Positions 12,190 to 28,827 of a DNA stretch of 64,000 bases are shown one piece after another. The DNA is taken from the NCBI GenBank assembly GCA_038087875.1, contig CM075989.1, positions 20,772,001 through 20,836,000 of the forward strand, in the 5' to 3' direction. The position numbers and the translations under genes were made by a program. This DNA comes from Malacoraja senta (Eukaryota). Each line of letters opens with the position of its first letter. Position 1 is the first letter of the stretch. The notes under the pieces were generated by a model, which made no database searches, was not told the DNA's origin, and saw only the letters and a program-made list of their open reading frames with translations.

Positions 12190-12566
12190 CCAGAGGACAT
12201 AAGTTTAAGGTGAGAGGGGAAGGATTTAGTAAGAATCTGAGGGAAAACATTTTTACTCAGAGGGTGGTGGCTATATGGAACGGGCTGCCAGAGGAGGAAT
12301 TTGAACCAGGTACAATATCCCTTGACTCCACTATCTTTAAGAGCTCTATCTAACTCTCTCTTGAAAGCATCCAGAGAACTGGCTGGTTCTCTGGATGCTT
12401 TCAAGAGAGAGTTAGATAGAGCTCTTACAGATAGCGGAGTCAAGGGATATGGGGAGAAGGCAGGAACGGGGTACTGATTGTGGATGATCAGCCATGATCA
12501 CATTGAATGGCAGTGCTGGCTCAAAGGGCCGAATGGCCTACTCCTGCACCTATTGTCTATTGTCTA
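12190..12566 (+). mobile_element. CR1 fragments including a fold-back inverted duplication
   Basis: CR1 ORF2 end and 3' UTR. 12315-12379 is the reverse complement of 12386-12450. Confidence 0.8.
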
Positions 12567-13368
12567 ACATGTATAAAGCAGTTGGACAGGTAGTTGGATA
12601 GGAAAGGTTTTGAGGAATATGGGCCAAACACAGGCAGGAGGGACTGGCACAGATGAAGCTTCATGGTCAGCACGGGCAAGTTGGCCAAAGGGCCTGTTTA
12701 CATGCTGTACAACTATGACACTAAATGAATTTCCGGGCAATTATCTTTTAAATTCACCTGCAGGTTTAGCCCAAGATGAACAAAGTGACCCAAAGCAGTA
12801 GTACCTTCCAATCAATTGCTGTCTGAGGTTGAATTACCTGGGAGTTACTGAACGACAATGTCTGAAGCCATTTAGGTTTTGTGGAGGAATTCTAATGGAG
12901 CTGCGGAGAGATTTACAATTTAATTCTTTCATTTCCACTGTGTTGCCAGAAGCCGCGGAAGCTCCAGCTCTACAGATTCCATCCCGACTCCTTGCCAGAG
13001 AATACACAATGATCAGGCAATCAGCTGGGTCTCATCAGTTTAGTTCAGTTTAGAGATACAGCGCGGAAACGGGCCCTTCGGCCCACCGAGTCCACACCGA
13101 CCAGCGATCCCCACTCACTAACACTATCCTACACACACTAGAGACAATTTTGACATTTATACCAATCCTATTAACCCACATACAAATTCCCCTGCATCTC
13201 TCAATATTCTTGGTTGAGATCTTCAATCACTGTCATGTTTTCCTCCTCAAATGAAGACACAGTGAAGAGTACTGAGGCATTTTCCTGATTTTCTGCCTTT
13301 AAGGAAAGCACTGAAGATATCCCAATCTGATCATTGTTTGCTGATTGCAATCAGATAATAATTCAGCT

Positions 13369-13558
13369 TCTGCTTTTCGTGTCCATCTTGTTACAAATGT
13401 TGACCTCGCTGTCATCGTCCGTCCTGAAAAGGACGCAAGCTTCCGGCGACAATCAGCGGGAGCCACCACTTGTTGCAATAGATGATGGTGGTAGCAGCAT
13501 TAGCTCAGGATACTTCCAGTTTCCAGCCCCGTGACGTGGATTCTTCAGCTATGGGACC
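13369..13558 (-). mobile_element. Short ribozyme-headed retroelement, copy 1 (ribozyme degenerate)
   Basis: TSD ataattcagct (13358-13368 and 13559-13569). The element starts exactly at GGUCCC, the predicted cleavage-site G. P3 is mutated (GAA/CAC) and P2 has mismatches. Tail ggacacgaaaagcaga. Confidence 0.87.
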
Positions 13559-14225
13559 ATAATTCAGCTACTTCAACTAACGAAAGTATATTATATTGGT
13601 ACAAGGATACAAAGTGCTGGAGTGTCTCTGTTCTCCAGAGATGCTGCCTGACTTACTGAGTTATTCCAGCACTTTGTGTCATTTTGTGTAAGCCAGCATC
13701 TGCAGTTCCTTGATTCTATATTACATTGGTGATGTGCAATATAAAGCCATATACAGGCACTCCCCGACCTATATAATAGACGACTTATGTAAGCAGGCAC
13801 CTACCTGTACCTTGGTACATGTGACAATTATAAACTAAATTAAAAATCAGACCATGCTATACATGAGTACAATCAAGCCAAACCCAAGCCCAGATGGTAG
13901 AACAAATAGAAAGATGCCGACTGTAGAATATAGTTCTCAGCATCATAGCATGACCGTACTGGAGAAAACGTCCAATGTCCAATGTCCAAGATGAGGTAGG
14001 TTGGAGAATTGGGACTGTACCCTCGATTATGGAAGGGCCATTCAAAAAGTCTGTTAACAGAGAAGAACAAGCAGTTCCTGAGTCTGGTAATGTGAGCTTT
14101 CAAGCTTCTGTGACTTCTGGTCAACAGGAGCGGGGAGAAGATGGATTGACCGGGGGTTTGGAAGGTCCTTGTTTGTGTTGGCTGCTTTCCAGAAGCAATG
14201 AGTCTTCTTCGAGTCCGTTGCAATC

Positions 14226-17200
14226 TCAGATGTCATTCTGCCAGTATCTGGCGCAGGTCACAGCTGGTCGAGTCGGTTCAGCCAGGTCCTGGGGGCTGCA
14301 CTGGGGGGGGGGGGCGTCGTCACACTCCAGTAGGTGGGACATTGTCTGTACTGCTCCACAGCTGCATGTGTCTTATGCCTGGTAGTTCCATGCTTTCATA
14401 AGTGCTTTACACCTCCCCTGCTCCACTCGCATTCTGTTGAGGGTCTTCCAGGTTGGCCATGGGAGGTCGTGCCCGCTGGTGAGGCATTCAGTCGGAGTGA
14501 TTCCTCTCTCCATCCAGTCGTGGGCTCGTGTGTTGAGCTGGTTCCATTCATCTTTCCAGATGTTGGTCCTTGCTGTTTCTTTGGTTGTCTGGAGAGGTGG
14601 GACTGTCTGCAAGAAACTGGCTCTGGATTTCAGTCGGGGTGGAGGTGCTGTGTGTCCGTGCAGGGGGTGCCTGGTATCGATCTCCTGTGCTCTCCGCTCG
14701 TCTTGGGCGATGATGGATCGTCTGATATGGGGGGGGGGGCAATACCAGCTAGGGCGTAGAGGCACGGGACTGGCGTTGTCTTTATGCATCCCGTGATAAT
14801 GCGGCAGGTGTCATTGAGTGCTGTGTCAACCAGTTTGGTGTGGTGGGAGCGGCTCCAGCTTGAGCAAGCGTATTCAGCTGTGGAGAAGCACAGGGCTAGG
14901 GCAGTTGCACGGATGGTTGGTGGATCAGCGCCCCACTTTGAGTTTACCAGTTTGCGCAGGATGTTGTTGCGAGTGTTTACCTTGGCTTTGGTGTTCTGAA
15001 GGTGGGTTTTGAAAGAGAGTGTCCTGTCGAGTGTGACTCCGAGGTACACGGGGTGGAAGTGGTTGGAAATCCCATGAGACGCTCAGTTGTTTTCCTGCAT
15101 CTCGATTTCTAAGATGGAAGCTGCATAGTTTAAGGATAAGGGGGAAATCCTTTAAGACCGAGATGAGGAAAAACGTTTTCACACAGAGAGTGGTGAATCT
15201 CTGGAACTCTCTGCCACAGAGGGTAGTTGAGGCCAGTTCATTGGCTATATTTAAGAGGGAGTTAGATGTGGCCCTTGTGGCTAAAGGGATCAGGGGGTAT
15301 GGAGAGAAGGCAGGTACGGGATACTGAGTTGGATGATCAGCCATGATCATATTGAATGGCGGTGCAGGCTCGAAGGGCCGAATGGCCTACTCCTGCACCT
15401 ATTTTCTATGTATCTATAGTTGGGTTTTTGATGGGTTGGGTTTCAGGTGGTTGTTATTGTAGTAGGTTGTCATCTCTTGGAGGGTGCTTTCCAGGACAGG
15501 CTCAATCTTCTGGAAGTTCTCCTGTTGGGTGGTGATGCAGAGGTCATCAGCATAGATGAAGCGGCGGCATTGTGGGGGAAGTGGTTGGTCATTGGTGTAG
15601 ATGTTGAAGAGGAGGGGGGCCAGTACGCTGCCTTGTGGTAGGCCATTCTTTTGGGCTTTCCATTTGCTCTTCTTGTCGTTTAGTTGGACGAAGAAGCGCC
15701 TGTTGTTTAGAAGGCTTTTGATGACTTGGCACAGGTCGAGGTCACCAGTCATGTCAAAAAGTTTCCTGATCATGGTTCGGTGCTGGACAGTGTCGTAAGC
15801 AGCGGTGAGGTCTATGAAAGCTGCTCCGGTGATGAGTTTGCACTCGAAACCGTCCTCAATGTGTTGGGTGAGGTTCAGTAGCTGCCCGGCACAGGAGCGG
15901 CCAGGGCGGAAACCACCTTGATCTTTAGTAAGCTTTGAGTCTATAAGTGGCATAAGGCGTTGGAGTAGTAGCCTCTCGTAGAGATTGTAGGTGATGCAGA
16001 GGAGGGAAATAGGTCTGTAGCTCTTTGGGGATGATGGGTCCTTTCCAGGTTTTGGAATTGCGACAGTCTTGGCCTTTCTCCATACAGGTGGGGTTGTTTT
16101 CTGTGCCATGCATGAGTTCAGCATTGCTAGGAGCCAGATCTTTGCTTTAGGTCCAAGGTGCTGTATCATTTCCGTCAGTACATCATCGATTCCTGCTGCT
16201 TTCCCAGGCTTCAGCATGCTCATTGCAGCTTCGAGGTCTTCTAGGTCGAAGGGCTTGGTGAGAGCGCTGGCTGGTTGCAGGCCGTCTGTTACCGCTGTCC
16301 GGCGGTATTCTCCTGTGGGTCTGCGGCGGTTTTGGCTACGACCGTTTGCCACCAGCTGTGCTGCAACTGAGTTTGCTGTGACTGTTGTGAGTGTGGGCGG
16401 TGTGGTATGGTCTTCGCCGAGGCGGCGGATTGTGGCCCATGCCTTCCTGCTGTTATTGGTCATGTCGGTGTTTTCTATCAACTCCTTCCAGACTTGCCTT
16501 CGGTCCTCCCCGACTGTGTTCAACAGGATCTCTCCGAGTTCCATGGTGGTGGAGGAGAAAGGGTCCTCGTGGTATGTCCTGTGGTAGGCTTTCAGTAGAT
16601 CGCTGGATGTTTCCGACAGCCCGGGGATGTACTCAGTCTGGCATCCTCTTGGTATATGTCGCCTGGCTGACCTTTTCAACAGTTCTATGAACATGGTAGA
16701 GTTGTTGGGGTGTGATGGAATGCTGGGGATGGAGTCTTCGATCTCCTGTTGGAATGACAGACAGTCGGCCTTCCGCAGATTGAACCTTCTGCGGAAGGGG
16801 ACGGTTGTTGCTTGGAGAGCGGATCGGATGGTTATGGTAATTGGCCGGTGTTGCGTATGGGGGATAGGGTCCAGGACCTCTTTCACAGCTCTGGGTGATA
16901 GTTCGCTGCTCACACAAACAAGGTCTGGGTTATATCCTCGTTTCCATCTGGCACCGTGAAAAGATTTTGGCAGTTTGGCGTCATGGATCAGGGTCAGGTG
17001 TTTCGACTCGAGCCAGGTTTCGACTTCATCTCCATCTTGATTGTTCACTTCATAGCCCCACAATGAGCTATGGGCATTGAAGTCCCCAATGCTAATGTGG
17101 TATTTCCTCTTGCATCTGTCTGGCCGTTCAGAGTGGAGGAACGGACTTTGGGGGGGGGGTTTATACACTGATGTGACAGAGATGTTCGGGAGGGCGGCTG

Positions 17201-17506
17201 TGATGGTCTCCATTTGCCCTTCGGTGGTGTGGGTGCAGACCTCTTCGATCGCGAGGTTTGGTCTGCTGAATACAGCTGACCCATACTGTCTGTGTCGGAT
17301 CTCGGCCACCAGCTTCATTCCAGGGATGGCTGGTCGGTGTTGTGTAGGGCCGATGTGGGTTCCTGCATGCACACTAAGTCGAAGCGTTTGGCCGCTGTCG
17401 CTAGTATGTCTGCCTTGCATCTGGAGAAGCCTTCAATATTGATTGAGGCGATTGACAGTGCAGGCCCCGAGGAGGGCGAGTGTCTGTGGCGCTTCGGCAT
17501 CGTCAT
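14226..17506 (-). pseudogene. Disrupted endonuclease/reverse transcriptase ORF of the Vingi-type element
   Basis: APE motifs SINIEG, CMQE, GDFNAH, YNPDL and TQHRP; RT motifs YRPISLL, DLTAAYD, GLPQGSVLAP, YADD and YLGVTLD; C-terminal CSC..H..C. Broken by a frameshift near 17360, the CR1 insertion at 15131-15415, a frameshift in the G-run near 14730 and a stop at 14373-14375. Confidence 0.93.
15131..15415 (+). mobile_element. Young CR1 (HER1-like) 3' fragment nested in the Vingi RT region
   Basis: Encodes LRIRG..F.TEMR...FTQRVVNLWNSLP. Duplication atagtt at 15125-15130 and 15416-15421. Removing it restores KTQLCSFHLRNR. Confidence 0.9.
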
Positions 17507-17529
17507 CTAATAGATTGCTTGGGTAGGTG

Positions 17530-17623
17530 CACAGATAATGGCCTACTGGTGGTAATAATATCAAATTATACCATTCAGTGTTTCCCAGGCTGCACCACGG
17601 GAAGGTTTCTGTATTAGCAGCCC
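17530..17623 (-). ncRNA. HDV-like self-cleaving ribozyme at the 5' end of the Vingi-type LINE
   Basis: Minus strand: P1 GGGCUGC/GCAGCCU (G1-U wobble), P3 ACC/GGU, L3 UUCCCGU, GG available for P1.1, P4 hairpin ACUG..UGGUAUAAU/AUUAUUACCA..CAGU, P2 UACAGA/UCUGUG. G1 coincides with the TSD-defined element boundary. J4/2 is atypical (GGCCAUUA). Confidence 0.8.
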
Positions 17624-17734
17624 AAGCAATGAGTAGATGGCGTCGATGTTGGGAAATCTGGTCTGTGTGATACATCCACAACTCTCTGCGGTTCCTTGCA
17701 ATCTTGCGCAGAACTGTTCCCAGGCCAAGCAACG

Positions 17735-18070
17735 TTTAGTTTAGTTTATTTTTAGTTTAGTTCAGAGATACAGCGTGGAAACAGGCCCTTCGTCCCACTG
17801 ATTCCACGCCGACCAGCGAGCCCCACACATTGACACTATCCTACACACATTAGGGACAATTTACAAATACGCCAAGCTGATTAGTCTACATAACTGCAAG
17901 TCTTTGGAGTGTGGGATGAAACCGAAGATCTCAGAGAAAACCCATGCAGTCACGGGGAGAACGTACAAACTCTGTACAGACGGCACCTGTAGTCGGGATC
18001 GAACCCTGGTCTCCGGCGCTGCAAACACTGTAAGGCAGCAACTCTACCGCTGCGCCACCATGGCCGCCCT
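17735..18070 (-). mobile_element. V-SINE
   Basis: Full head, core and tail structure. Confidence 0.88.
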
Positions 18071-20369
18071 CAATGATGCAGCCCGACAGTGTGTTTTCTA
18101 TGGTGCATCTGTGGAAGTTTGTAAGAGTCACTGGACAGGCTGAATTGGGTAAATAGAGGGGTTGGTGCTTTCTTGGCTATCACCTCAATGTGGTTGCTCC
18201 ACGATAGATTGTTGGTAATATTTATGCAAGGAACTTGAAGGTCTCAACAATTTCCTCTTTTGGTTTTGTGTCTATTATTCCTTTATGTATCCATGGAATG
18301 GCTTGGTGATATATGGGACACACTTTAAGTAAATGCTAGTTATTATCACTGTTACAGTAGCTTTTAAGTCTGATATGGCCTATGTACTCATTTAGTGAGC
18401 ATTGTCCCAAATATAATGTGTGAAATGGTTTTCCAAACTGCCTTCACTTGACCCAAAGAAATATTTTAAGTTTGGGGAATTTAGAGGTGGCGAATTGGGA
18501 AATGACAGCAATTTACTACTTCAAAACATTATTAACAAATTAATTATAAGGGCCAAAATGCTGATATAAAAGGTATATATAGCTTATTAAAACATGGCTC
18601 CAATTTTATTTTATGTTTCTCTATCTTAGTCTGGATTACAAAGGTGATGAAAATGTGAGGGAGTCACAAATTAGATTGCCGCTACAAATTCCTTGTGTCA
18701 GCACCAGTGGTAATAAATGGGAAACCTGCCTTTCCCTCGATCTATGGGGAAAAGATTATGTGGTTAGCTTGTGCTTATCACGCTGAGCGTAAGTCTAATT
18801 GGAATGAACTATTGCAAAGTTTATGAAGTCCTGGGGCAGTTTGTTACAGAACTGTATCAATTAATCTATTCTTTTTTTTTAATGAGTTAGGGATTTCCTT
18901 TGGAGCCAATTGCCGTGGAATCTGACCAAAGGCCCAGAGGAAGCAGAGATTCCATATCATTGACCCCTTCAATTACAGTACACACCTCCCTCACAAGGTA
19001 ACAAATTAGATCCAACCGCTCTATAAACAGGGAAGGGTTTTTAAACCATGGCCAAGGTGTTAAAGGGGAGGGATTGCTCAACATAGCGGTGTCGCAAGTT
19101 TGCTTCGATTAAAGCAGAAAGAACAAAACACTATATATCCTGCTGGGCACCAAATTGCTTCCATTTAACCCAAGTTTGTCCCAACACTGTAGCTCCCTAT
19201 ATAGGAATGATTAATGACAGAACAGGGAGAAAGGATCTAACATACTATGTGAATGGTTGTTTGAAGTCTTAACTGCTCAGCATAAATGTTACAAATGACA
19301 ATTTAGGTGGATACCTTTTGCTGTTAAGTCTTTTCATATGTTGAATAAATCCATTGAGATTGATTCAAGTGCCTTGTGAATCATCTATTATTTATTTACA
19401 GGCCTTCAATGAAAAATAACCAATAGAATAATTTGTTTCGAAATATATCTGCGATGTTTTCTTTACATTCTGAATAAACAGATTAAAGTTAACAAAGTAA
19501 CGATTTAGAAAAGAGAACAATTTATGTTTCGAGCGAACTGATGCCAATATCAGGATTGACCAATACCTTTAACAAATCACTAGTGACATTAAAAAACACA
19601 CTAAACACTGTTCCTTTTATCAATAGTCCATTCCCCAAGTAGATTGATTCATGATATGTTTGATCACATCCAGAGTAGATTAATTTTATTAAACTTTGAC
19701 AAACGTTATCTCACGGATGTTATTTTTCAGTTATTTTCTCGTGAGCCGACATTATTTATTCACTTCACTGAAGCTTCTGTTGAAAACAGTCACAGCAAAG
19801 TGTTGCATTATTTAAAGTTGATTGAAGAAGAGAAACAAGAAAATGCGGCTGCTGGTTGATCACGGAGAGACACAGAGTGTTGGAGTAACTCAGCGGGTCA
19901 GGCAGCATCTCTGGAGAACAAGGATAGGTGACGATTCAGGTCAGGACCCTTCTTCCGACTGATCCGTCAGAAAGGTTCTGACCTGAAACGTCACCTATCC
20001 TTGTTCTCCAGAGATGCTGCCTGGCCCACTGAGTTACTCCAGCATTTGAGGTGGAGGTGGTTCCTGAAGTTACATCAAAGAAGCCTCATTTTCTGAATAA
20101 GATCTTTGTTGGCAGTTTGGTTACCTGATCTCAGATGGATGTTGGAATTGCTCGAGTCAGTGCTGAAAGTATACGGCATGGTTTTTCACTCCAGCACATG
20201 TAAAAGAAGCTACGAATGTTGGAAACTTGAACAAAATACAAAGTGCAAAGTAACTTAGCAGATCAGGCGGCATCTGTAGAGGGAATGGATCGGTGATGTC
20301 TCGGGTCGGGACACTTCTAAGTCTGAAGAACTTAGAAGGACCGGTCTGAAATGTTTCATATTCAGTCTA

Positions 20370-20663
20370 GTTTAGTTTAGTTTAGTTCAGGTCATAGATA
20401 CAGCATGGAAACAGGCCCTTCAGCCCACAAAGTCCATGCCGACCAGCGATCACCCTGTACACTAACACTATTCTACACACACTTGGTACAATTTACCATT
20501 TTACCGAAGCCAATTAATCTACAAACCTGTACGTCTTTGGAGTGTCGGAAGAAACCGGAGCTTGCGGAGAAAACCCACGCAGGTCACGGGGAGAACGTAC
20601 AAACTCTGTACAGATAGCGCCCGTAGTCAGGATCGAAACTCTACCGCAGTGCTACCATGCCAC
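20370..20663 (-). mobile_element. V-SINE with deletion in the head
   Basis: Core and tail homology. Confidence 0.82.
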
Positions 20664-20739
20664 CCAGTTCCTCCACAGCTGCTGCCTAACCTGCTGATTC
20701 TTTGTGTTTTACAGGAGAATAAACTATGAGGCTCAACAA

Positions 20740-21065
20740 TCCTCACTGAATCCTTTAAATGTAATCTTGAAGACCACACAGCCTCTTGCCCAGAGTAGGG
20801 GAATCGAGAACTCAAGGACACAGGTTTAAGGTGAGGGGAGAAAGATTTAATAGGAATCTGAGGGTAACTTTTTTCACACAAAGGGTGGTTGGTGTACGGA
20901 ACAAACTGCCAGAGGAGGTAGTTGAGGCTGGGACTATCGCAACGTTTAGGAAACATAGACAGGGCAGTTTTGGAGGGATATGGGCCAAACACAGGCAGGT
21001 GGGACTACTGTAGCTGGGACATGTTGGCCAGTGTGGGCAAGTTGGGCTGAAGGGCCTGTATGACT
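20740..21065 (+). mobile_element. CR1 3' fragment
   Basis: RTQGHRFKVRGERFNRNLRVTFFTQRVVGV.NKLPEEVVEAG. Confidence 0.85.
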
Positions 21066-21384
21066 TTAGGACTCTACTTGTTGTTCTGCACAATTTGTAT
21101 TGCATTGGTCAGCCCACAATGACACTGATTCCCCTGATCACGATGTTTAATAGTAATAATTGATGACTTGAACTCCTGTCCCCAGCTGATTTAGAATCAA
21201 TGTGCATGTTTACTGGGACAATCAATATTGATACCAAATGCCTATAATTGTGTAATGTAAACAGCCGAGGCAAACTAATATTGGAATATTCATCATATAT
21301 CATTTGTGCTGAAAGTACAAGGGACTTATTGAAGTGATGTGCCATATTAATATGGTTGCTATTTCTATAAAATACACTCAATAT

Positions 21385-21760
21385 ATATCAGAACAAGTCC
21401 TTCCAACCTGCCATCAGGCCGCCGATATAAAGTCCCCCTATCTAAGAAAAACATCCACAAAAACTCATTCATACCCATTGCCATAAACAGCTTAAATAAA
21501 AAATGAACAATGGACAAATTAACCCTGACGCACTGTCACTTTTCACGTATCCACAACTTCCATCTTGGCTATTTTTACAGTTTTTAATCCTTATACTTGT
21601 TTTTAAGATCTATACACACGGTGTGTGCTCGCAGAAATCTGTGTTGTATGACTGCTTATCAGTACATTGTCCTGTTTGTATGTTGAGCCACGCCAAAGAA
21701 GATTTTCTGTTACGACAGACAATAAAGCTTTCTGAATCTGAATCTGAACCTGAATCTGAA
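21385..21760 (+). mobile_element. Rex1/L2-type LINE 3' fragment with (tctgaa)n tail
   Basis: One frame reads LPSGRRYKVPLSKKNIHKNSFIPIAINSLNK*, followed by AATAAA and a (tctgaa)n tail at 21731-21760. Confidence 0.65.
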
Positions 21761-21810
21761 TACCTATCTTCCACAGATTTTGATTTCTAATTCTTAAACC
21801 TGTTGTTCAA

Positions 21811-22050
21811 GGGTGGCATTGTGGTGCAGCGGTAGAGTTGCTGCCTTACAGCCGTTGCAGCGCCAGAGACCTGGGTTCAATCCCAACTATGGGTGCTGTC
21901 TGTATGGAGTTTGTACGTTCTCCCTGTAACCCCGTGGGTTTTCTCCGGGTGCTCCGGTTTCCTCCCACACTCCAAAGACATACAGGTTTGTAGGTAAATC
22001 GGCTTGGTAAATGTAAAAATTGGCCCTAGTGTATGGAGGATAGTGTGCGG
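21811..22050 (+). mobile_element. V-SINE, 3' truncated
   Basis: Head and core homology. Confidence 0.85.
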
Positions 22051-22560
22051 ACACTCAAATCAAATGTGGCCTGATTATTTCATAGAACACAAAATGCTGG
22101 AGTAACTCAGCGGATCAGGCAGCATCTCTGGAGGACAGGGTCATGTATCTGGTCTGGACCCTTCAGCCTTAACAAAGGGTCCTGATCCAAAATATCACAT
22201 AACCCTCAGTCTGAAGAAGGGTCCCAACCTGAAGCATTGTCTACCCATGTCCTCCAGAACTTATAGTCGCTCAGAGGTGGAGGGTATATGCATCGAGCTG
22301 CTAGGGGAGGTAGTTGAGGCAGGTACTGGAACAGCATTTAAAAGCCTCTTGGACAGGTACCGGCATAGGAAAGGTTTGGAGGGATATGGGCCAAAGGCAA
22401 GCAGATGGGACTAGCTTAGATGGGACATCTTGGTCAGCATGGGCGAGTTGGGCCGAAGGGCCTGTTTATATGCTGTATGAGTCTATGACTCTATGACATT
22501 GCAATGCCCTCAATGGAAATAAAAGTGGAGATAAATGACAAGCTACCAACCATCCACTGA

Positions 22561-22868
22561 TTTAGTTTAGAGATACAGAGCGTAAACAGGCCCTTCGGCC
22601 CACCGGGTCCGCGCCGACCAGCGATCCTCGCACACTAACACTATCCCACACACACTAGGGCCAATTTTTACATTTACCGAGCCAATTAACCTACAAACCT
22701 GGACATCTTTGGAGTGTGGGAGGAAACCCAAGATCTCGGAGCAAACCCACTCAGGTCACGGGGAGAACGTACAAACTCCGAACAGGCAGCAACCGCAGTT
22801 GGGATCGAATCCAGGTCTCTGGCGCTGCATTCGCTGTAAGGCAGCAACTCTACCGCTGCGCCACCGTG
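22561..22868 (-). mobile_element. V-SINE
   Basis: Full head, core and tail structure. Confidence 0.88.
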
Positions 22869-23183
22869 ACCTCCCTATGTATGCCCTAGTTATGTTGTTT
22901 TCCACAGCTGGGATGTAGGATAACAAGTGCGGGAAGTATCAGTGGGATGTAACTGATGAGGAACCTTCAAAGGATGGTAATTCATTTTTGTTTATTAAGC
23001 AAAGCAGAAAATGAAGCAATTGATATTTGTTGAGGAAGCTGAGTAAATGGCATTTCACAGCATTCATTTTTAACAACACTGTTTCTCTTTAATTTCCCAA
23101 GAGCAGTACTTTGCTTCGCAGTGGCCTCACATTTTTAAATATTCTGGGATCGACTCAAACAGGACGCCACGCTCCAGGACTGT

Positions 23184-23825
23184 TTAGTTTAGTTGAAGTT
23201 GGAGATACAGCGTGGAAACTGGCCCTTCAGCCCACCGAGTCCATGCCGACCATCGATCCCCGCACAGTAAAAGCCCTGTCCCACTGTACGATGTTCATTC
23301 AAGAGTTCTCCCGAGTTTGCCCTGATTTGAACTCGGAGAATTACGGTAATGGCCGCTCGCAGGTACTCGGGGCTCTCGTGGACATTTTTCAACATGTTGA
23401 AAAATCTTCACGAGTCTTCCCGAGCTTACCGCGTTTCCCGAGTACCTGCCGTTAGCGTTACGAGCAGCTAAGAGACGTCCCCGAGCTCCGACGTACCCGC
23501 TACGTACATTCTACGTGCTTACCGCGAGTTTGATTTTTTTTTAAACTCGGGAGAGCACTTGAATGAACTCGTACAGTGGGACAGGGCTATAACACTTTCC
23601 TACGCACACTATCGACAAATTTACAATTTTACCGAAGCCGGTTAACCAACAAACCTGCGCGTCTTTGACGTGTGGGATGAAACCGGAGCTCCTGGAGAAA
23701 ACCCTCGCAGGTCATAGGGAAAATGTACAAACTCCATACAGACAGCACCCGTACGTAGTAAGGAATGAACCTGGGCCTCTGGCGCTGTGAGGCAGCAACT
23801 CTACCGCTGCCCCACCATGCCGCCA
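23184..23825 (-). mobile_element. V-SINE split by a MITE
   Basis: SINE tail at 23184-23270; body at 23590-23825. Confidence 0.85.
23271..23589. mobile_element. PIF/Harbinger-type MITE inserted in a V-SINE
   Basis: TIR agccctgtcccactgtacga; TAA TSD. Confidence 0.9.
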
Positions 23826-24204
23826 CATTAGATATTTTACCATTTTGATTTGGATGGAACCAGTTACTTTGCTTGTAGTTTCCTGATTCAATACATTCAG
23901 GAAGTGTGCTGTGGAAGCTGCGTTAAACGTTCAAATTGTATTGTAGCTTGTTTTAAAATAATAACCAGCTGAAGGGCCTGTTTCCATGCTGCACGACTGT
24001 ATGACTAAATTCATCCTCAAGATAAAAAGGAGAGCTGGGTGTAAATTAGTTGTTGACTTTGACCTCCATTGTAGAAGTTATTGCAAAGCTGTATCTATTC
24101 CTCGATTTATTATTAACGGGAGCTCAGAAGTAGCACGTTAGCTCATAAATCAGATGGTGATGAATGCAAGTCAAGATATCTTAACAGTGTAGACATTTGT
24201 GCAT

Positions 24205-24399
24205 GATGGCCCCATAGCAGAAGCGTCCACGTCGCGGGGCTGGAAACTGGAAGTATCCTGAGCTAATTCTGCTACCCACTTCATCCATGGTGACAAGTGA
24301 TGGCTCCCACTGATTGTCGCCGGAAGCTTGTGTCCTTTTCAGGACGGACGATGACAGCGAGGTCAACATTTGTAGCAAGATGGACACGAAAAGAAGAAG
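24205..24399 (+). mobile_element. Short non-autonomous retroelement (~190 nt) with HDV-like ribozyme head and Vingi-like tail, copy 2
   Basis: TSD atttgtgcat (24195-24204 and 24400-24409). Tail ggacacgaaaagaagaag. Homologous to 13369-13558 in the opposite orientation. No tRNA A/B boxes seen. Confidence 0.88.
24208..24274 (+). ncRNA. CPEB3/HDV-like ribozyme, fold apparently intact
   Basis: GGCCCC A UAGCAGAA GCG UCCACGU CGC GGGGCU GG AAACUGGAAGUAUCCUGAG CUAA UUCUGCUA. P1 is 6 bp with G1-U, P2 is a perfect 8 bp, P3 is 3 bp, P1.1 is CC/GG, and J4/2 is CUAA with the putative catalytic C at 24263. Confidence 0.88.
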
Positions 24400-24869
24400 A
24401 TTTGTGCATATTGAGAAAGGCTTGTGTTGCCGCTGTTCCCTTTCAGAACATCCCAAAACTCTTTGCTCATGGGCGCATTTTTTAACTGGAGCCACTGCTG
24501 TAATGTAGGAAATATGTCACCATATTTCTGCACAGCAGGATCCCAGAAATAGCAATGATCTGAACACCTGTACTTGCTTTTAGTGTCATGGGGCTGAGAG
24601 AGCAAGAGAGAGAGAGAGAGAGAGAGAAGGGGGGAATGTTCCCTAGATTATTTTAAGAGACAAGTAGACATGTACATGGATAGGACAGGGTTGGAGGGAT
24701 ATGGGCCAAACGCAGGCAGGTTGGACTAGATGGGGCATGTTGGTCATTGTGGGCAAGTTGGGCGAAAAGGTCTGTTTCCACGTTGTATGACTCTATGACT
24801 AGTCCCTCTAGCTTCATCGTGACCTACAGGGAAGGTGGATGATATCACAGGTTAGATGGTGCTTGGACT

Positions 24870-26045
24870 TGAAAGTGGATTCACAGGTGGATGGGGTGGT
24901 GAAGAAGGCATTTCATTCATTGGCCTTCATCAGTCAGGGTATTGAGTGTAGAAGTTGGGACACTATGTTACAGTTGTACAAGACATAGGTAAAACCCCGC
25001 TCAGAGTATTGTTTTCCATTTGTGTCATGCTACCATAGGATGGATGAGAAAAAGTAGCTGGGAAAAGTACAGGGAATTTACAGAATGTTGTCAGGACTCG
25101 AGGCCTGAGCTACAGAGAGAGGGTGGGCAGGCTAGCACTTTATTCCTTGTTGTGCATGAGGCTGAGGGTCTAAAAAATCACACGGAAAATAGTTGGAGTG
25201 AATGCACAGAATCTTTTTCTGATGGAGAGGAATCAAGATCGAGAGGGCACAGGTTTAAGATGAGAGGGGAAAGTCTTAAAATGAACCTGAGAGGCAACCT
25301 AATCACACAGAGGATGGTTGGTACATGGATCGAGCTGCCAGAGGAAAGGGCCTGTCCCACCAGCATGCGACTGCACGCGGCAAGCGTGACCTAACGCGGT
25401 CGCTTGAGCCGTACGGCCTCGCGGGGCCGGTCCCACTTCGATCGCCGGAGCCGTATGGAGTTGTGCGGAGCTGGTCCCGACATCGCGCGGGGCTCCGAAA
25501 AACTGACTGCCCAAAAATTCCGCGCGGCAACGGCCTGCCGGCCCACAGCCGCATTGAGGCCGTACGCACCGCCTCGTCGGGCATGCGCAGCGTCTCGACG
25601 CCGTACGCAGCTTCTTGACGCAGTACGCAGCGTCTTGACGGCGTACGCCTAGCGCGAACTTCCCGCGGACTTCGCTCGAACTTCACGTCATCTCTTACGG
25701 GATCACTCGACCTCCGCGCGGCCCTGCTTCCGGTTTGCTCGCGCTCGCCGCCATGCAGTCGCATGCCTGGGGGACCGGCCCTGTACGAGGATCACTCGAC
25801 CTCCGCGCGACCCCCGCGCGGCCCCCGCTTCCGGTTTTGGTCGCGCTTGCCGGCATGCAGTCGCATGCTGGTGGGACCGGCCCTGTACGGGGCTCACTCG
25901 ACCTCCGCTCGACCTCCGCGCGACCCCCGCGCGGACCCCGCTTCCGGTTTGGTCGCGCTTGCCGCATGCAGTCGCATGCTCGTGGGACAGGCCTGAAGTA
26001 GTTGAGAGATGTACTATAACAGCATTTAAAAGATACTTAGAGAGG
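24870..26045 (+). mobile_element. Degenerate CR1 ORF2 3' region interrupted by a MITE
   Basis: SRGHRFKMRG..ITQRMVGTWIELPEE continues as gtagttgag after the MITE at 25347-25994. Confidence 0.75.
25347..25994. mobile_element. CpG-rich Harbinger-type MITE with triplicated right-end module
   Basis: TIR agg(g)cctgtcccac(c/g)agcatgcgactgca; GAA TSD (25344-25346 and 25995-25997). Confidence 0.85.
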
Positions 26046-26240
26046 TAGTGTCAGTTTAGTTTATTGTCACGTGTGCGAGGTAGAATGAAAAGCTTTTTGT
26101 TGAGTGATATCCAGTCAGGGGAAAGACAACACATGATTACAATTGGGCCATTTACAGTGTATAGAATCGTGATAAGGGAATAACTATTACTGCAAGGTAA
26201 AAGCCAGCAAAGTCCGATCAAGGATAGTCCCGAGTGTTTC

Positions 26241-26637
26241 AGAAAGAACTGCAGATGATGGAAAAATCGAAGGTAGACAAAATGCTGGAGAAACTCAGCA
26301 GGTGAAGCAGCATCTATGGAGTGAAGGAATAGGTGATGTTTTGGGTCGAGGCCCTTCTTCAGACTGATGTGGGGTGGTGGGGGCGCGGGAAGAAGAAAGG
26401 AAGAGGCGGAGACAGTAGGCTAGTGGGAGAGCTGGGAAGGGGAGGGGAAGGAGGGAGAAAGGAAGGGCTACCTGAATTGGAGAAGTCAATGTTCATACCG
26501 CTGGGGTGTAAACTACCAAGCGAAAGATGAGGTGCTGCTCCTCCAATTTGCAGTGGGACTCACTCTGGCCATGGAGGAGGCCCAGGACAGAAAGGTCGGA
26601 TTTGGAATGGGAGGGGGAGTTGAAGTGCTGAGCCACC
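26241..26637 (-). mobile_element. Penelope-like element 3' fragment (GIY-YIG C-terminus and pseudo-LTR)
   Basis: Minus frame VAQHFNSPSHSKSDLSVLGLLHGQSESHCKLEEQHLIFRL..LHPSGMNIDFSN, followed by the tctgaagaaggg..cc(c/a)aaac motif shared with the short palindromic units. Confidence 0.85.
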
Positions 26638-27511
26638 ATGAGTCCGAGGGTCACCAATGAGGAAGACAGTTGTTCAGCACTGCTCTCCGGTTGTGGTAGG
26701 ATGGTTCGTTGCCTGATAAAAGCTGGGAAGAAACTGTCCCTGAATCTGGAGGTGCATGGATAAGGAACATTTAGAGGGATACGGGGACGAACGCAGGCAA
26801 ATGGGACTAGCTTAGATGGGGCATGGACAAGTTGGGCTTGTTTCTGTGCTGTGTGACTCTATGACTGGTGTTGAATTAACCAGCATCATATGAATCTTTA
26901 AACCAGATGGGGGAAAAAAACTTCATCAGTTCTTTCACAATCTATTCTGGATGGTTTGCTTCATCTTGTACTGTACATGAGCTGATTTCTATTTTGAAAT
27001 CAAATTGCCTGAGGCAAAGATTTGACATTATGTGTTGTATCTGCATTGTGACACGTGACGGGGAATGAGAGGTTGAGAATGGAGAACGGGTACAGCTGCC
27101 CTTTCTTCTTCCACCCTTTGCTCCAGACCTCTCCACTTAACTTAACTTTGCTTTCTTTGATGAGAATTTTTGATTTCACATACTGATAAGTACGGTGCTT
27201 TATTTATGATAAAGTCCTGTACGGGCACTTCTGTAAAGTTAAAAGCGAGATTTTTCAATTTTTAGAATTTTAATTTGATTTGATACTTTTTCTAACGTGG
27301 AGCAGTACAGCACAAGAACAGGCCCTTTGGCCCACAATGTCGGTGCTGAACATGATGCCAAGTTAAGCTAATCTTCTCTCCCTGCACGTGACCTATATCC
27401 CTCCATTCCATATCCATGTGCCCATCTAAAAGTCTCTTAAACGCCACTATTGCAACATGTTTCAGGCACCCACCACTCTGTGTGAAAAACTTGCCCCGCA
27501 CATCTCCTTTA

Positions 27512-27827
27512 AAGCCCTATCCCACTGTACGAGTTTATTCAAGAGCTCTCCCGAGTTTAAAAAAAATCAAACTCGTGGAAGCACATAGAATGTACGTAGC
27601 GGGTACGTCGGAGCTCGGGGACGTCTCTTAGCGGCTCTTAATGCCAACGGCAGGTACTCGGGAAACGCGGTAAGCTCGGGAAGACTCGTGAAGATTTTTC
27701 AACATGTTGAAAAATGTCCACGAGAGCCCCGAGTACCTACGAGCGACCATTACTGTGAATATCCGAGTTTGAATCAGGGCAAACTTGGGAGAACTCTTGA
27801 ATGAACTTGTACAGTGGGACAGGGCTT
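27512..27827. mobile_element. PIF/Harbinger-type MITE, same family as 23271-23589, inverted
   Basis: TIR aagccct(a/g)tcccactgtac; TTA TSD; internal sequence is the reverse complement of 23271-23589. Confidence 0.9.
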
Positions 27828-27991
27828 TTACATTTCACCCCTCTCATGTTAAAGCTATGCCCTCTGGCCTTCTTCTTATCAAGTCCACACACAAGATTAG
27901 AAGTTGTTCAGCCAGAGCTGAACACACATCTCAGCATCTGCATACAATGGTGTCTGTCTTGTTGCTTCTTGTGCTTCTTGTGCGTGGTGGT

Positions 27992-28045
27992 GGAAAGATT
28001 GGTGGAAACAAGGGCCGCGACGTGAACGCTCTTTCCTTGACCCCA
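27992..28045 (-). ncRNA. Minimal (P4-less) CPEB3/HDV-like ribozyme fold
   Basis: Minus strand: (U)GGGGUC AA GGAAAGA GCG UUCACGU CGC GGCCCUU GU UUCCA CCAA UCUUUCC. P2 is a perfect 7 bp, P3 is GCG/CGC and L3 is UUCACGU. Followed by the tail acgcacaagaagcacaagaagcaacaaga to 27957. Confidence 0.78.
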
Positions 28046-28827
28046 TGCCCTCTGGTAAACAGGGAGGTAAATTGATGCGGAAAAAAACTTGATAACATTT
28101 TTTAATTGATATATACACTGGCAACTTTTTGTCCACAAAAAAACCACAGGGTTTGTTAATGGTACAATCAAAAATTGCAGAATCTCTCCAATTTACTCTA
28201 CACTATCCAATTTTGTGGGAAGGAACTGCAGATGCTGGTTTACAATGAAGATAGACACAAAATGCCGGAGTAACTCAGCGGGACTGGGTACATCGTTGAT
28301 AGAAGGCATGGGTGACGTTTCGGGTCGAGACCCTTCTTCAGACTCATTTCTGAAGTCCAGTCTGAAGAAGGGTCACGCCCCGAAACATCACCCATTCCTT
28401 CCAACCAGAGATGCTGAGTTACTCCAGCATTTTGTGTCTATCCACACTGTCCATTTGATGTGGTCTCATCGAAATCTTATGTCACGCTTTGGATTGTGTT
28501 CTTTAAACTGAGGGTATTTGCAGTTTTGTACAAGTTCCCTGCATCAGTTTAGTTGTTACTTTGTTCAAAATCCATGAGAAGAGTTGATGGAAGATGTTTG
28601 TACTAATACTTCATATTTTACATTCAATGGAAGCAGCTTCAAAGAATTGATGTAAACTTGTTCTTCTTTTGTTTTAAATACTTAGCTTTCTCCATTGAGG
28701 AAAGGCAAGCGGGAGGTGTTGATTCCAATGCTGAACTACGATTTACCTCTTTGGTAACGCTCGGACGATCCTTGATCGGACTTTGCTGGCTTTACCTTGC
28801 ACTAAACGTTATTCCCTTATCATATCC

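What the first reader, a model, noticed from the sequence alone, without database searches (positions are those of the whole stretch)
13369..28045. A three-tier family of HDV-ribozyme-headed retroelements in one window: autonomous LINE, ~190-nt element and ~90-nt minimal element
Seen: four nested double-pseudoknot folds, each at the 5' boundary of an insertion ending in a similar (gaa)-rich tail. The tails are gcaacggactcgaagaaga (LINE), gcaagatggacacgaaaagaagaag (190-nt element) and acgcacaagaagcacaagaag (minimal element). Established: HDV-like ribozymes define the 5' ends of R2, RTE and trypanosome L1Tc/ingi elements and their short derivatives (NARTc/RIME/SIDER). Inference: this genome carries promoter-less 'ribozyme SINEs' that cut themselves out of host transcripts and borrow a Vingi-type RT through tail mimicry. 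I know of no description of this in cartilaginous fish, but I cannot search the literature.
Basis: partly seen in the sequence, partly recalled or inferred. Interest (0 to 1): 0.92.

Follow-up and report, generated by a model that had tools for sequence, protein, structure and literature searches.

The report
Ribozyme-headed retroelements resembling CPEB3 ribozyme
This stretch holds a jumping gene (LINE) and three short parasitic elements that each begin with a predicted self-cutting RNA, and that RNA is a close sequence relative of the 'mammal-only' CPEB3 ribozyme, which hints where that ribozyme came from.

Summary
Four HDV-type double-pseudoknot folds sit at the first base of four insertions flanked by target-site duplications (TSDs). 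Two pass Rfam's CPEB3_ribozyme cut-off. One is a decayed copy, and the LINE's is a divergent, sub-threshold HDV-like fold.

One claim is wrong. The "~90-nt minimal element" is a 177-nt element.

- **Copy number:** signature motifs give 1,342 and 2,211 genomic matches for the two short families, with 0 for reversed controls.
- **5' ends:** of 40 copies picked by their 3' half alone, 36 reach G1. TSDs abut G1.
- **Fold support:** six sequence types were seen; alignment A2 (five of them) gives covariation for P1, P2 and P4.
- **Likely driver:** the 192-nt family shares its last 16 bases with a second LINE, not the one in the window. That LINE has an APE+RT ORF of 991 aa and scores up to 64 bits on the CPEB3 model.
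- **Clade:** its 5' end matches published Vingi 5' ends.

Cleavage is inferred, not shown. This is a new variant of ribozyme-processed non-autonomous retroelements. It also makes a Vingi origin of the mammalian CPEB3 ribozyme plausible.

The parts
13367..13558 (-). 192-nt non-autonomous element, copy B. Its ribozyme head (13558-13493) is decayed. Tail: ...ggacacgaaaagcagaag
   Evidence: RF00622 17.8 bits. P3 1/3 and P2 5/7. The sequence was read.
13358..13366 (-). TSD ctgaattat of copy B. The other copy of the TSD is at 13559-13567 and abuts G1 at 13558.
   Evidence: Read directly.
14203..17623 (-). LINE-A: an APE+RT non-LTR retrotransposon and a dead copy. It has a frameshift near 17367 and a nested insertion. 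Tail: ...gcaacggactcgaagaaga
   Evidence: ORFs. Pfam hits Exo_endo_phos_2 and RVT_1. 49% identity to LINE-B over 649 aa. About 20 genomic 5' ends.
17531..17623 (-). Divergent HDV-like fold heading LINE-A. G1 is at 17623. P1 is GGGCUGC/GCAGCCU.
   Evidence: RF00094 27.2 bits, below GA 50. Helices were checked.
17624..17633 (-). TSD ctcattgctt of LINE-A. The other copy is at 14193-14202.
   Evidence: Read directly.
15083..15413 (.). Unrelated repeat nested inside LINE-A's RT region (approximate limits).
   Evidence: A break in the reading frame between ORFs 15414-17432 and 14630-15082. The LINE-B protein alignment stops at the break.
24208..24399 (+). 192-nt non-autonomous element, copy A. Tail: ...ggacacgaaaagaagaag
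   Evidence: 40 of 40 scored genomic matches are full length. A contig of run X1 matches 24207-24400.
24208..24273 (+). CPEB3-type HDV-like ribozyme fold heading copy A.
   Evidence: RF00622 39.7 bits. All helices are intact.
24195..24204 (+). TSD atttgtgcat of copy A. The other copy is at 24400-24409. Three extra bases, gat (24205-24207), lie before G1.
27868..28044 (-). 177-nt non-autonomous element; the family is about 175 nt.
   Evidence: A contig of run X2 matches 27869-28046.
27992..28044 (-). P4-less CPEB3-type ribozyme fold heading the 177-nt element.
   Evidence: RF00622 36.2 bits. Helices checked.
27857..27867 (-). TSD ccagagggcat of the 177-nt element. The other copy is at 28045-28055.

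Best explanation
The window holds members of a living system of ribozyme-processed retroelements.

The system has two layers. Vingi-like LINEs carry a single ORF with an AP-endonuclease and a reverse transcriptase. At least two high-copy short non-autonomous families (about 192 nt and 175 nt) have no polymerase III head.

Proposed cycle:
1. A copy lying in sense orientation inside any host transcript is co-transcribed. This step is inferred.
2. Its 5' HDV-type (CPEB3-type) double pseudoknot cuts itself immediately 5' of G1. The RNA therefore begins exactly at the element's first base. The fold and the genomic 5' ends are shown. The chemistry is inferred.
3. The LINE protein recognises the short shared 3' end, GAC(A/T)CGA..AAGAAGAAG, in trans. 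It copies the RNA by target-primed reverse transcription to its very 5' end. This gives full-length copies with TSDs of 8-14 bp. The TSDs and tail identity are shown. The trans action is inferred.

The 192-nt family is matched to 'LINE-B', which lies elsewhere in the genome. The 175-nt family is matched more loosely to the window's LINE-A type.
For: - **Rfam.** Two window heads pass RF00622. LINE-B heads score 40.7-64.2 bits in 4 of 4 copies examined. A genome-wide RF00622 scan scored 59 candidates: 51 had E<=1e-3 and 39 were over the cut-off. None of 14 control genomes matched.
- **Covariation.** Alignment A2 has 20 rows and 27 pairs, with 85.5% of cells paired and 14 pairs changed on both sides. 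The covariation score is 0.325, against at most 0.082 for slid partners, and 0 of 500 shuffles reached it. P2 is a pseudoknot helix: 95% of its cells pair and 4 of 7 pairs change on both sides.
- **5' ends, 192-nt family.** Of 40 places chosen by the 3' half only, 36 reach G1 and 4 are 5'-truncated. Of 28 TSDs of 9 nt or more, 21 abut position 1.
- **5' ends, 175-nt family.** TSDs were found in 23 of 30 copies, and 18 abut G1 exactly.
- **5' ends, LINE-A.** About half of 18 copies start within 2 nt of G1. The rest are truncated.
- **Tails.** The last 16 nt of the 192-nt family are identical to LINE-B's.
- **LINE-B.** One ORF of 991 aa with APE and RVT_1 domains.
- **No tRNA head**.
- **Copy numbers.** 1,342 and 2,211 signature matches, with 0 for controls.
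Against: - No cleavage has been observed.
- One polyA RNA-seq run showed both strands of the elements and no pile-up of read starts at G1. This is uninformative rather than negative.
- LINE-A's ribozyme is below Rfam thresholds. Its J4/2 (CCAUUA) differs from the usual C-N-A-A, and the Rfam HDV alignment puts a U at the catalytic-C column.
- The bodies of the short elements are unrelated to either LINE. The LINE-to-short-element pairing therefore rests on 16 nt for the 192-nt family and about 14 nt for the 175-nt family.
- Rows for covariation were hand-picked. Of the 20 ribozymes fetched, 3 were dropped as truncated or deleted. L083 and the four 192-type rows of alignment A1 were also left out.
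- Related sequences inflate shuffle statistics.
Confidence: 0.8

Rival explanations
1. The 5' ends are set by transcription initiation from an internal promoter. The conserved fold would then serve RNA stability, translation or protein binding rather than cutting. The precedent is the dual promoter/ribozyme Pr77 of L1Tc.
For: No cleavage data exist. In L1Tc the same 77 nt are both promoter and ribozyme (PMC3383444, abstract seen). The RNA run shows no start pile-up at G1.
Against: No tRNA-like head was found. The covariation keeps a double pseudoknot, including P2 and the G1-U pair, which is what a ribozyme needs and a DNA promoter does not. The heads score on a ribozyme model built from active mammalian sequences.
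Confidence: 0.1
2. The heads are inherited LINE 5' ends kept for another reason, such as protection of the RNA end or a signal for finishing cDNA synthesis. They may no longer cut in the short families.
For: Review text credits the R2 ribozyme fold with cap-like protection against 5' exonucleases (PMC13708176, passage). The P4-less head and the A1 subfamily seen in L095, L101 and L110 might be poor catalysts.
Against: P4-less HDV-like ribozymes are known to be active (theta and minimal ribozymes, PMC10879173; listing only). The exact start at G1 still needs some process that creates that end.
Confidence: 0.07
3. The similarity to the mammalian CPEB3 ribozyme is convergence forced by the HDV fold, not common descent.
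For: HDV-like ribozymes recur widely, and the core is constrained.
Against: A review passage, citing Webb 2009, states that only six nucleotides are invariant among HDV-like ribozymes (PMC8256844). Here runs such as AGAAGCGUUCACGUCGCG, CCCUGUCA and UGCGAAU are shared with the Rfam consensus, and the 'type D' heads also share the P4 stem CAGAUUCU..GAAUCUG. The HDV model scores these heads far lower than the CPEB3 model does.
Confidence: 0.2

Closest known systems
R2 SIDEs: non-autonomous R2 and R2/R1 derivatives of Drosophila (Eickbush & Eickbush 2012, PMC3414825; abstract seen)
   Same: Short protein-less elements that keep a 5' HDV-like ribozyme to define their 5' end from a co-transcript. 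They also keep a 3' end recognised by the LINE protein.
   Different: SIDEs are internal-deletion derivatives, rDNA-specific and low in copy number. The elements here are dispersed in thousands of copies, their bodies are unrelated to the LINEs, and their partner is an APE-type LINE.
NARTc/L1Tc, RIME/ingi and SIDER of trypanosomatids, with the L1TcRz ribozyme (PMC3185411, PMC4035085; abstracts seen)
   Same: An Ingi-group LINE plus short derivatives that all share an HDV-like ribozyme in the first ~77 nt. Ingi is described as closely related to Vingi (Kojima 2018; 'sister clade' in the review read).
   Different: That is a protist system whose head is also an internal promoter. There is no sequence likeness to the CPEB3 type.
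Vingi LINEs and their non-autonomous derivatives or SINE parts (Kojima 2011, not readable here; Kojima 2018, PMC5786205, passages and supplement read)
   Same: Compact single-ORF APE+RT elements of about 3.1 kb. The printed 5' ends of Vingi-2_Gav, Vingi-4_Crp, Vingi-1_BF and Vingi-2_SPur carry the same GCAGAAGCGTTCACGTCGCG...CTGCGAAT head. SINE2-1_AMi ends ...ggacacgaaaaaggaaagga, like the tails here.
   Different: That paper does not call the Vingi 5' end a ribozyme. [quoted passage not shown] SINE2-1_AMi has a tRNA head upstream, whereas the elements here start at the ribozyme.
Mammalian CPEB3 intronic ribozyme (Rfam RF00622; Salehi-Ashtiani 2006, recalled; Bendixsen 2021, PMC8233481, passages read)
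   Same: Sequence-level likeness across P1, P2, P3/L3, J1.1/4 and J4/2. Scores reach 64 bits on the family model.
   Different: The mammalian one is a single-copy conserved intron element. These are heads of mobile elements in thousands of copies. P4 varies or is missing.
RTE, R2, R4, Baggins and SART 5' ribozymes (Ruminski 2011; paper not held, abstract recalled)
   Same: 5' processing of promoter-less non-LTR elements by HDV-like ribozymes.
   Different: Other clades and other sequences. That abstract, as I recall it, assigns HDV-like ribozymes to LINEs and hammerheads to SINEs. Here HDV-type heads serve SINE-sized elements.

Membership tests
HDV-like self-cleaving ribozyme | Nested double pseudoknot: P1 (with a G1-U wobble at the cut site), P1.1, P2, P3 and, optionally, P4 | tested here: met
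   Pair lists for the window copies. Covariation on 20 genomic heads. Copy B at 13558 is decayed.
HDV-like self-cleaving ribozyme | Catalytic cytosine in J4/2 (C-N-A-A before the P2 3' strand) | tested here: inconclusive
   CUAA in the 192-nt head, CCAA in the 177-nt head and CGAA in LINE-B fit. LINE-A has CCAUUA, and the Rfam alignment puts a U at that column.
[quoted passage not shown]
   Only indirect evidence: genomic 5' ends and TSDs at G1.
Rfam RF00622 CPEB3_ribozyme | Score at or above the gathering score of 35 bits | tested here: met
   39.7 and 36.2 bits in the window. 39 genomic hits over the cut-off, up to 64.2 bits. Copy B and LINE-A do not reach it.
Rfam RF00622 CPEB3_ribozyme | Single conserved copy in an intron of the CPEB3 gene of mammals | tested here: not met
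   These are dispersed repeat heads: 1,342 and 2,211 signature matches. They are relatives of the family, not the orthologous locus.
Vingi clade of non-LTR retrotransposons | Single ORF with an APE endonuclease and RT, and no RNase H domain | tested here: met
   LINE-B has an ORF of 991 aa with Exo_endo_phos and RVT_1 only. LINE-A fragments show the same two domains. A missing Pfam hit is weak evidence that RNase H is absent.
Vingi clade of non-LTR retrotransposons | RT phylogeny placing it with reference Vingi elements | not tested
   No reference Vingi protein was available to the tools. There is only 5'-end nucleotide likeness, judged by eye, to the Vingi ends printed in the PMC5786205 supplement.
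Canonical SINE | Head derived from tRNA, 5S or 7SL RNA with an internal pol III promoter | tested here: not met
   ARAGORN found no tRNA-like sequence in 13000-28500. The elements start with the ribozyme.
Bipartite non-autonomous LINE (5' end plus 3' end of its LINE) | Body made only of the parent LINE's 5' and 3' parts | tested here: not met
   Only the ribozyme core (14-17 nt matches) and the last 16 nt match LINE-B. Nothing else matches LINE-A or LINE-B. Other, unexamined LINE families could be the parents.

The most novel reading that the evidence does not exclude
The mammalian CPEB3 intronic ribozyme is said not to occur outside mammals. It may be a domesticated 5' head of a Vingi-clade retroelement. 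This genome would then keep the living family: LINEs plus thousands of ribozyme-headed SINE-sized elements with several sequence types. That would supply the missing outgroup for the CPEB3 ribozyme. It would also show that Vingi elements, including those now used as gene-writing tools with their native 5' UTRs, begin with a self-cleaving ribozyme.
Probability: 0.6. Interest if true: 0.88.

Novelty: new variant of a known kind. Interest (0 to 1): 0.78.

Why it matters
**Scope of ribozyme processing.** This would extend ribozyme-defined 5' ends to the Vingi clade, and to SINE-sized elements present in thousands of copies in a large animal genome. Kojima 2018 lists ribozymes for six other LINE clades.

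**Origin of the CPEB3 ribozyme.** A 2021 study states that the CPEB3 ribozyme has no known outgroup (PMC8233481). These elements give a concrete and testable origin for it.

**Annotation.** The Rfam CPEB3 model will label large numbers of repeat copies as 'CPEB3 ribozyme' in non-mammalian genomes. Here 39 of 59 scored candidates were over the cut-off, out of about 100,000 rough first-look candidates.

**Gene-writing tools.** Vingi-based gene-insertion systems keep native Vingi 5' UTRs (review PMC13708176). If those UTRs self-cleave, anything placed upstream would be cut off. I did not test whether Vingi-1 of Anolis has the head.

Tried and rejected
- **RNA evidence.** The look-up of sequencing runs listed no RNA holder. 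One 2026 polyA RNA run of raw reads (X10) and three contig runs were laid. The elements are covered on both strands, the unique flanks have no depth, and no places were reported where many molecules begin or end. This says nothing either way about cleavage.
- **Rfam at relaxed thresholds.** Besides the ribozymes, only miRNA-like hairpin hits from inverted repeats appeared, all far below their cut-offs.
- **Other LINE 5' ends.** A LINE family at 36% identity (L085, L086) and two LINE-A copies (L062, L064) gave no ribozyme hit at E<=1.
- **Alignment A1.** MAFFT mis-set the P1 3' strand of the 192-type rows in A1. A2 was therefore made without them, and the 192-type was checked by explicit pair lists instead.
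- **Earlier notes of this scan.** Four look-ups found nothing on this genome or on look-alike sequence.
- **Papers not held.** Kojima 2011 and Ruminski 2011 could not be read. Webb 2009 and Webb & Luptak 2011 were not looked up and are known to me only by recall or citation. They may already describe related ribozymes of amphioxus, sea urchin or lamprey.
- **Literature searches with no relevant hit.**
  - 'CPEB3-like ribozyme': 0 papers.
  - CPEB3 + ribozyme + LINE + exapted: 0 papers.
  - Vingi + ribozyme: 6 papers, none linking the two.
  - HDV-like + cartilaginous: 2 papers, both irrelevant.
- **Not attempted.** RT clade placement by protein search, because no named reference was available. 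The taxon of the genome was not checked either.


Full report
**What is in the window**

Rfam's curated thresholds give two hits, both to the mammalian CPEB3 ribozyme family RF00622. One is at 24196-24273 (+), 39.7 bits. The other is at 27992-28053 (-), 36.2 bits. The gathering score is 35.

At relaxed thresholds two more appear. RF00622 scores 17.8 bits at 13493-13568 (-). HDV_ribozyme RF00094 scores 27.2 bits at 17557-17625 (-), below its gathering score of 50. Nothing comparable lies in the rest of the window.

Explicit pair lists give the following:
- **Head at 24208:** P1 6/6 with G1-U34, P2 7/7, P3 3/3, P1.1 2/2, P4 5/5, J4/2 CUAA.
- **Head at 28044:** P1 6/6, P2 7/7, P3 3/3, a one-pair P1.1, no P4, and a CCAA junction.
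- **Copy at 13558:** the same element as 24208 but decayed, with P3 1/3 and P2 5/7.

The LINE's head starts at G1 = 17623. It has P1 7/7 (GGGCUGC/GCAGCCU, with G1-U37), P3 3/3, P1.1 2/2, a long AU-rich P4 hairpin and a five-pair P2 (ACAGA/UCUGU). Its J4/2 reads CCAUUA, and the Rfam alignment places a U at the catalytic column. That fold is plausible but not secure.

**Boundaries**

All four units are flanked by target-site duplications (TSDs).

| Unit | Strand | Coordinates | TSD |
|---|---|---|---|
| 192-nt copy A | + | 24208-24399 | atttgtgcat, with 3 extra bases before G1 |
| 192-nt copy B | - | 13558-13367 | ctgaattat, abutting G1 |
| LINE-A | - | 17623-14203 | ctcattgctt, abutting G1 |
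| Third short element | - | 28044-27868 | ccagagggcat, abutting G1 |

These were read.

The third element is not a ~90-nt unit. In 30 of 30 genomic copies, homology runs on past the supposed tail. The family is about 175 nt long and ends ...GTGTGTGGACTCGATAAGAAGAAG. Contigs from other public runs match exactly 24207-24400 and 27869-28046, which agrees with these limits.

**Genome-wide behaviour**

The assembly is 1.94 Gb.

- **192-nt family.** There were 2,067 first-look candidates. The 40 scored were all essentially full length, and apart from the window's own copy they were 94-95% identical to it. A 25-nt signature has 1,342 matches with up to 2 mismatches, against 0 for the reversed control.
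- **175-nt family.** There were 1,134 first-look candidates. Its signature has 2,211 matches, against 0 for the control.

To test the 5' end without bias, I searched with the 3' half alone and fetched the 5' sides of all 40 places. That set includes the window's own copy and one duplicated pair, L012/L020.

- 36 of 40 reach G1. One of these has an internal deletion and one has a rearranged 5' end.
- 4 of 40 are 5'-truncated.
- Among the 36, a TSD of 9 nt or more was found in 28.
- Of those 28, 21 abut position 1, 6 lie 1-3 nt upstream, and 1 runs through position 1.

For the 175-nt family, 30 loci were picked by their 5' part. TSDs were found in 23. Of these, 18 abut G1 exactly, 2 are offset by one base, and 3 start at G2-G3.

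LINE-A has only about 20 copies of its 5' end. About half of the 18 examined start within two bases of G1. The rest are truncated at scattered points, as LINEs usually are.

**The LINEs**

LINE-A carries Exo_endo_phos_2 and RVT_1 domains. It is dead: it has a frameshift near 17367 and a nested repeat at about 15083-15413.

A protein search of the genome found its own family at about 90-96% identity. It also found families at about 50% identity, with open frames of up to 1,014 aa. I call the 50% family LINE-B.

Findings on LINE-B:
- All 4 copies whose upstream regions I fetched carry RF00622 hits of 40.7-64.2 bits at their 5' ends.
- The one whole copy examined has a single ORF of 991 aa with APE and RT domains and no other Pfam hit.
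- It is 49% identical to LINE-A over 649 aa.
- In 2 of 3 copies where both ends were read, TSDs place the 5' end within two bases of G1.
- Its 3' end is ...CAAAGACACGAAAAGAAGAAG.

The last 16 nt of the 192-nt family are identical to that 3' end. LINE-A's tail...GGACTCGAAGAAGA, resembles the 175-nt family's GGACTCGATAAGAAGAAG.

Beyond the ribozyme core and these last bases, the short elements match neither LINE. They look like head-body-tail composites, not deletion derivatives of these two LINEs.

**Is the fold real?**

A genome-wide RF00622 scan gave about 102,000 rough first-look candidates, of which 59 were scored. Of those, 51 had E<=1e-3 and 39 were over the cut-off. None of 14 control genomes matched.

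I fetched 20 hits of varied length. Together with LINE-B and the two short families, they show at least six sequence types. P2 differs between types in a compensated way:
- GUAGAA/UUCUAC
- GCAGGA/UCCUGC
- AAGGA/UCCUU
- GGAAAGA/UCUUUCC
- GCAGAA/UUCUGC

Alignment A2 has 20 rows: 17 of the 20 fetched, plus L084, L036 and the window copy. I left out L127 and L129 (5'-truncated) and L134 (internal deletion). I also left out L083 and the four 192-type rows of the first alignment, A1. MAFFT had mis-aligned the 192-type rows.

On A2 the full pseudoknotted structure gives:
- 85.5% of cells paired.
- 14 of 27 pairs with changes on both sides.
- A covariation score of 0.325, against at most 0.082 when partners are slid.
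- 0 of 500 shuffles reaching the observed score.

By helix, P2 is 95% paired with 4 of 7 pairs doubly changed. P4 has 7 of 8 pairs doubly changed, and P1 has 2 of 7.

Two caveats apply. The rows were chosen by me, and related sequences inflate shuffle statistics. The slid-partner control is the more meaningful one.

**Clade and the link to CPEB3**

No reference Vingi protein was available, so I did not place the RT in a tree.

The supplement of Kojima 2018 (PMC5786205) prints the 5' ends of Repbase Vingi-2_Gav, Vingi-4_Crp, Vingi-1_BF and Vingi-2_SPur, aligned to the alligator SINE2-1_AMi. By eye, all carry the same head as LINE-B...GCAGAAGCGTTCACGTCGCG...CCCTGTCAG...CTGCGAATTCTGC. SINE2-1_AMi ends ...ggacacgaaaaaggaaagga.

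[quoted passage not shown] It does not call this sequence a ribozyme.

The same head is strikingly close to the Rfam consensus of the mammalian CPEB3 ribozyme. In the alignment, P3/L3 (GCGUUCACGUCGC) and the junctions CCCUGUCA and UGCGAAU are identical. The differences in P1 and P2 are compensated. The 'type D' heads also share the mammalian P1 (GGGGGCC/GGCCCCU) and the P4 stem (CAGAUUCU..GAAUCUG).

A review passage states that only six nucleotides are invariant among HDV-like ribozymes (PMC8256844). Convergence is therefore an unlikely explanation.

Bendixsen et al. [quoted passage not shown] Kojima's Repbase review lists a Vingi fossil (X12_LINE) in the human genome (PMC5753468).

My searches found no paper that links CPEB3 or a ribozyme to Vingi. 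Webb 2009, Webb & Luptak 2011, Ruminski 2011 and Kojima 2011 were not read: two were not held, and two I did not look up. Any of them could contain such a link.

**Mechanism and verdict**

The best reading has confidence 0.8. These are promoter-less retroelements whose RNA 5' end is made by self-cleavage of an HDV/CPEB3-type ribozyme out of a host co-transcript. A Vingi-like LINE protein then copies the RNA by binding the short shared 3' end.

- **Shown here:** the folds, their covariation, 5' ends and TSDs at G1, tail identity, copy numbers, and LINE domain content.
- **Inferred:** cleavage, co-transcription and trans-mobilisation.

The RNA-seq lay did not inform on any of these.

The general principle is known from R2 SIDEs, NARTc/RIME and RTE. 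I therefore file this as a new variant of a known kind.

The more novel reading is that the mammalian CPEB3 ribozyme descends from this retroelement lineage. The evidence does not exclude it, and in my view makes it more likely than not.

Noticed in passing
L081 (about 185-300, minus orientation) and L082 (about 185-345, minus orientation); also the first ~60 nt of L136 read 5'->3': Some LINE-B copies begin with 3-5 tandem repeats of a 26-nt partial ribozyme unit, GATCAAGGTAGAAGCGTTCACGTCGC, ahead of the complete ribozyme. Rfam reports these as extra partial CPEB3 hits of 25-27 bits. The unit is bounded by the GATC shared by the two P1 strands, which suggests slippage or template switching at the 5' end.
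   Followed up: partly
window 15083-15413: A repeat of about 330 bp, unrelated to the LINE, is nested inside LINE-A's RT region. It ends ...ggccgaatggcctactcctgcacctattttctatg.
   Followed up: no
L137 (G000:C3:83740260-83740778, minus orientation): A third kind of short element of about 256 nt, headed by the 'type D' ribozyme, which is the type closest to the mammalian CPEB3 consensus. Its TSD tagttgt abuts G1, and its tail is ...GATGACATGAAAAAAAAAAGAA.
   Followed up: partly
L095, L101, L110 (192-nt family): A subfamily begins AGCCCCTT instead of GGCCCCAT. In it the G1-U wobble would be an A1-U pair, which may affect cleavage.
   Followed up: no
window 12343-12422, 19906-20016, 28245-28442: Long perfect or near-perfect inverted repeats give sub-threshold miRNA-family hits on both strands. 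They are probably MITE-like or foldback repeats.
   Followed up: no
window 24564-24986 and 26115-26819: Very high read and contig depth in all four runs laid, meaning further high-copy repeats between the two short elements. The RNA run shows strongly one-sided strand depth at 27243-27524.
   Followed up: no
TSDs of both short families: Most TSDs begin with A, often just after extra AAG or AA at the tail end. This suggests a preferred nick site or microhomology between the (AAG)n tail and the target.
   Followed up: no
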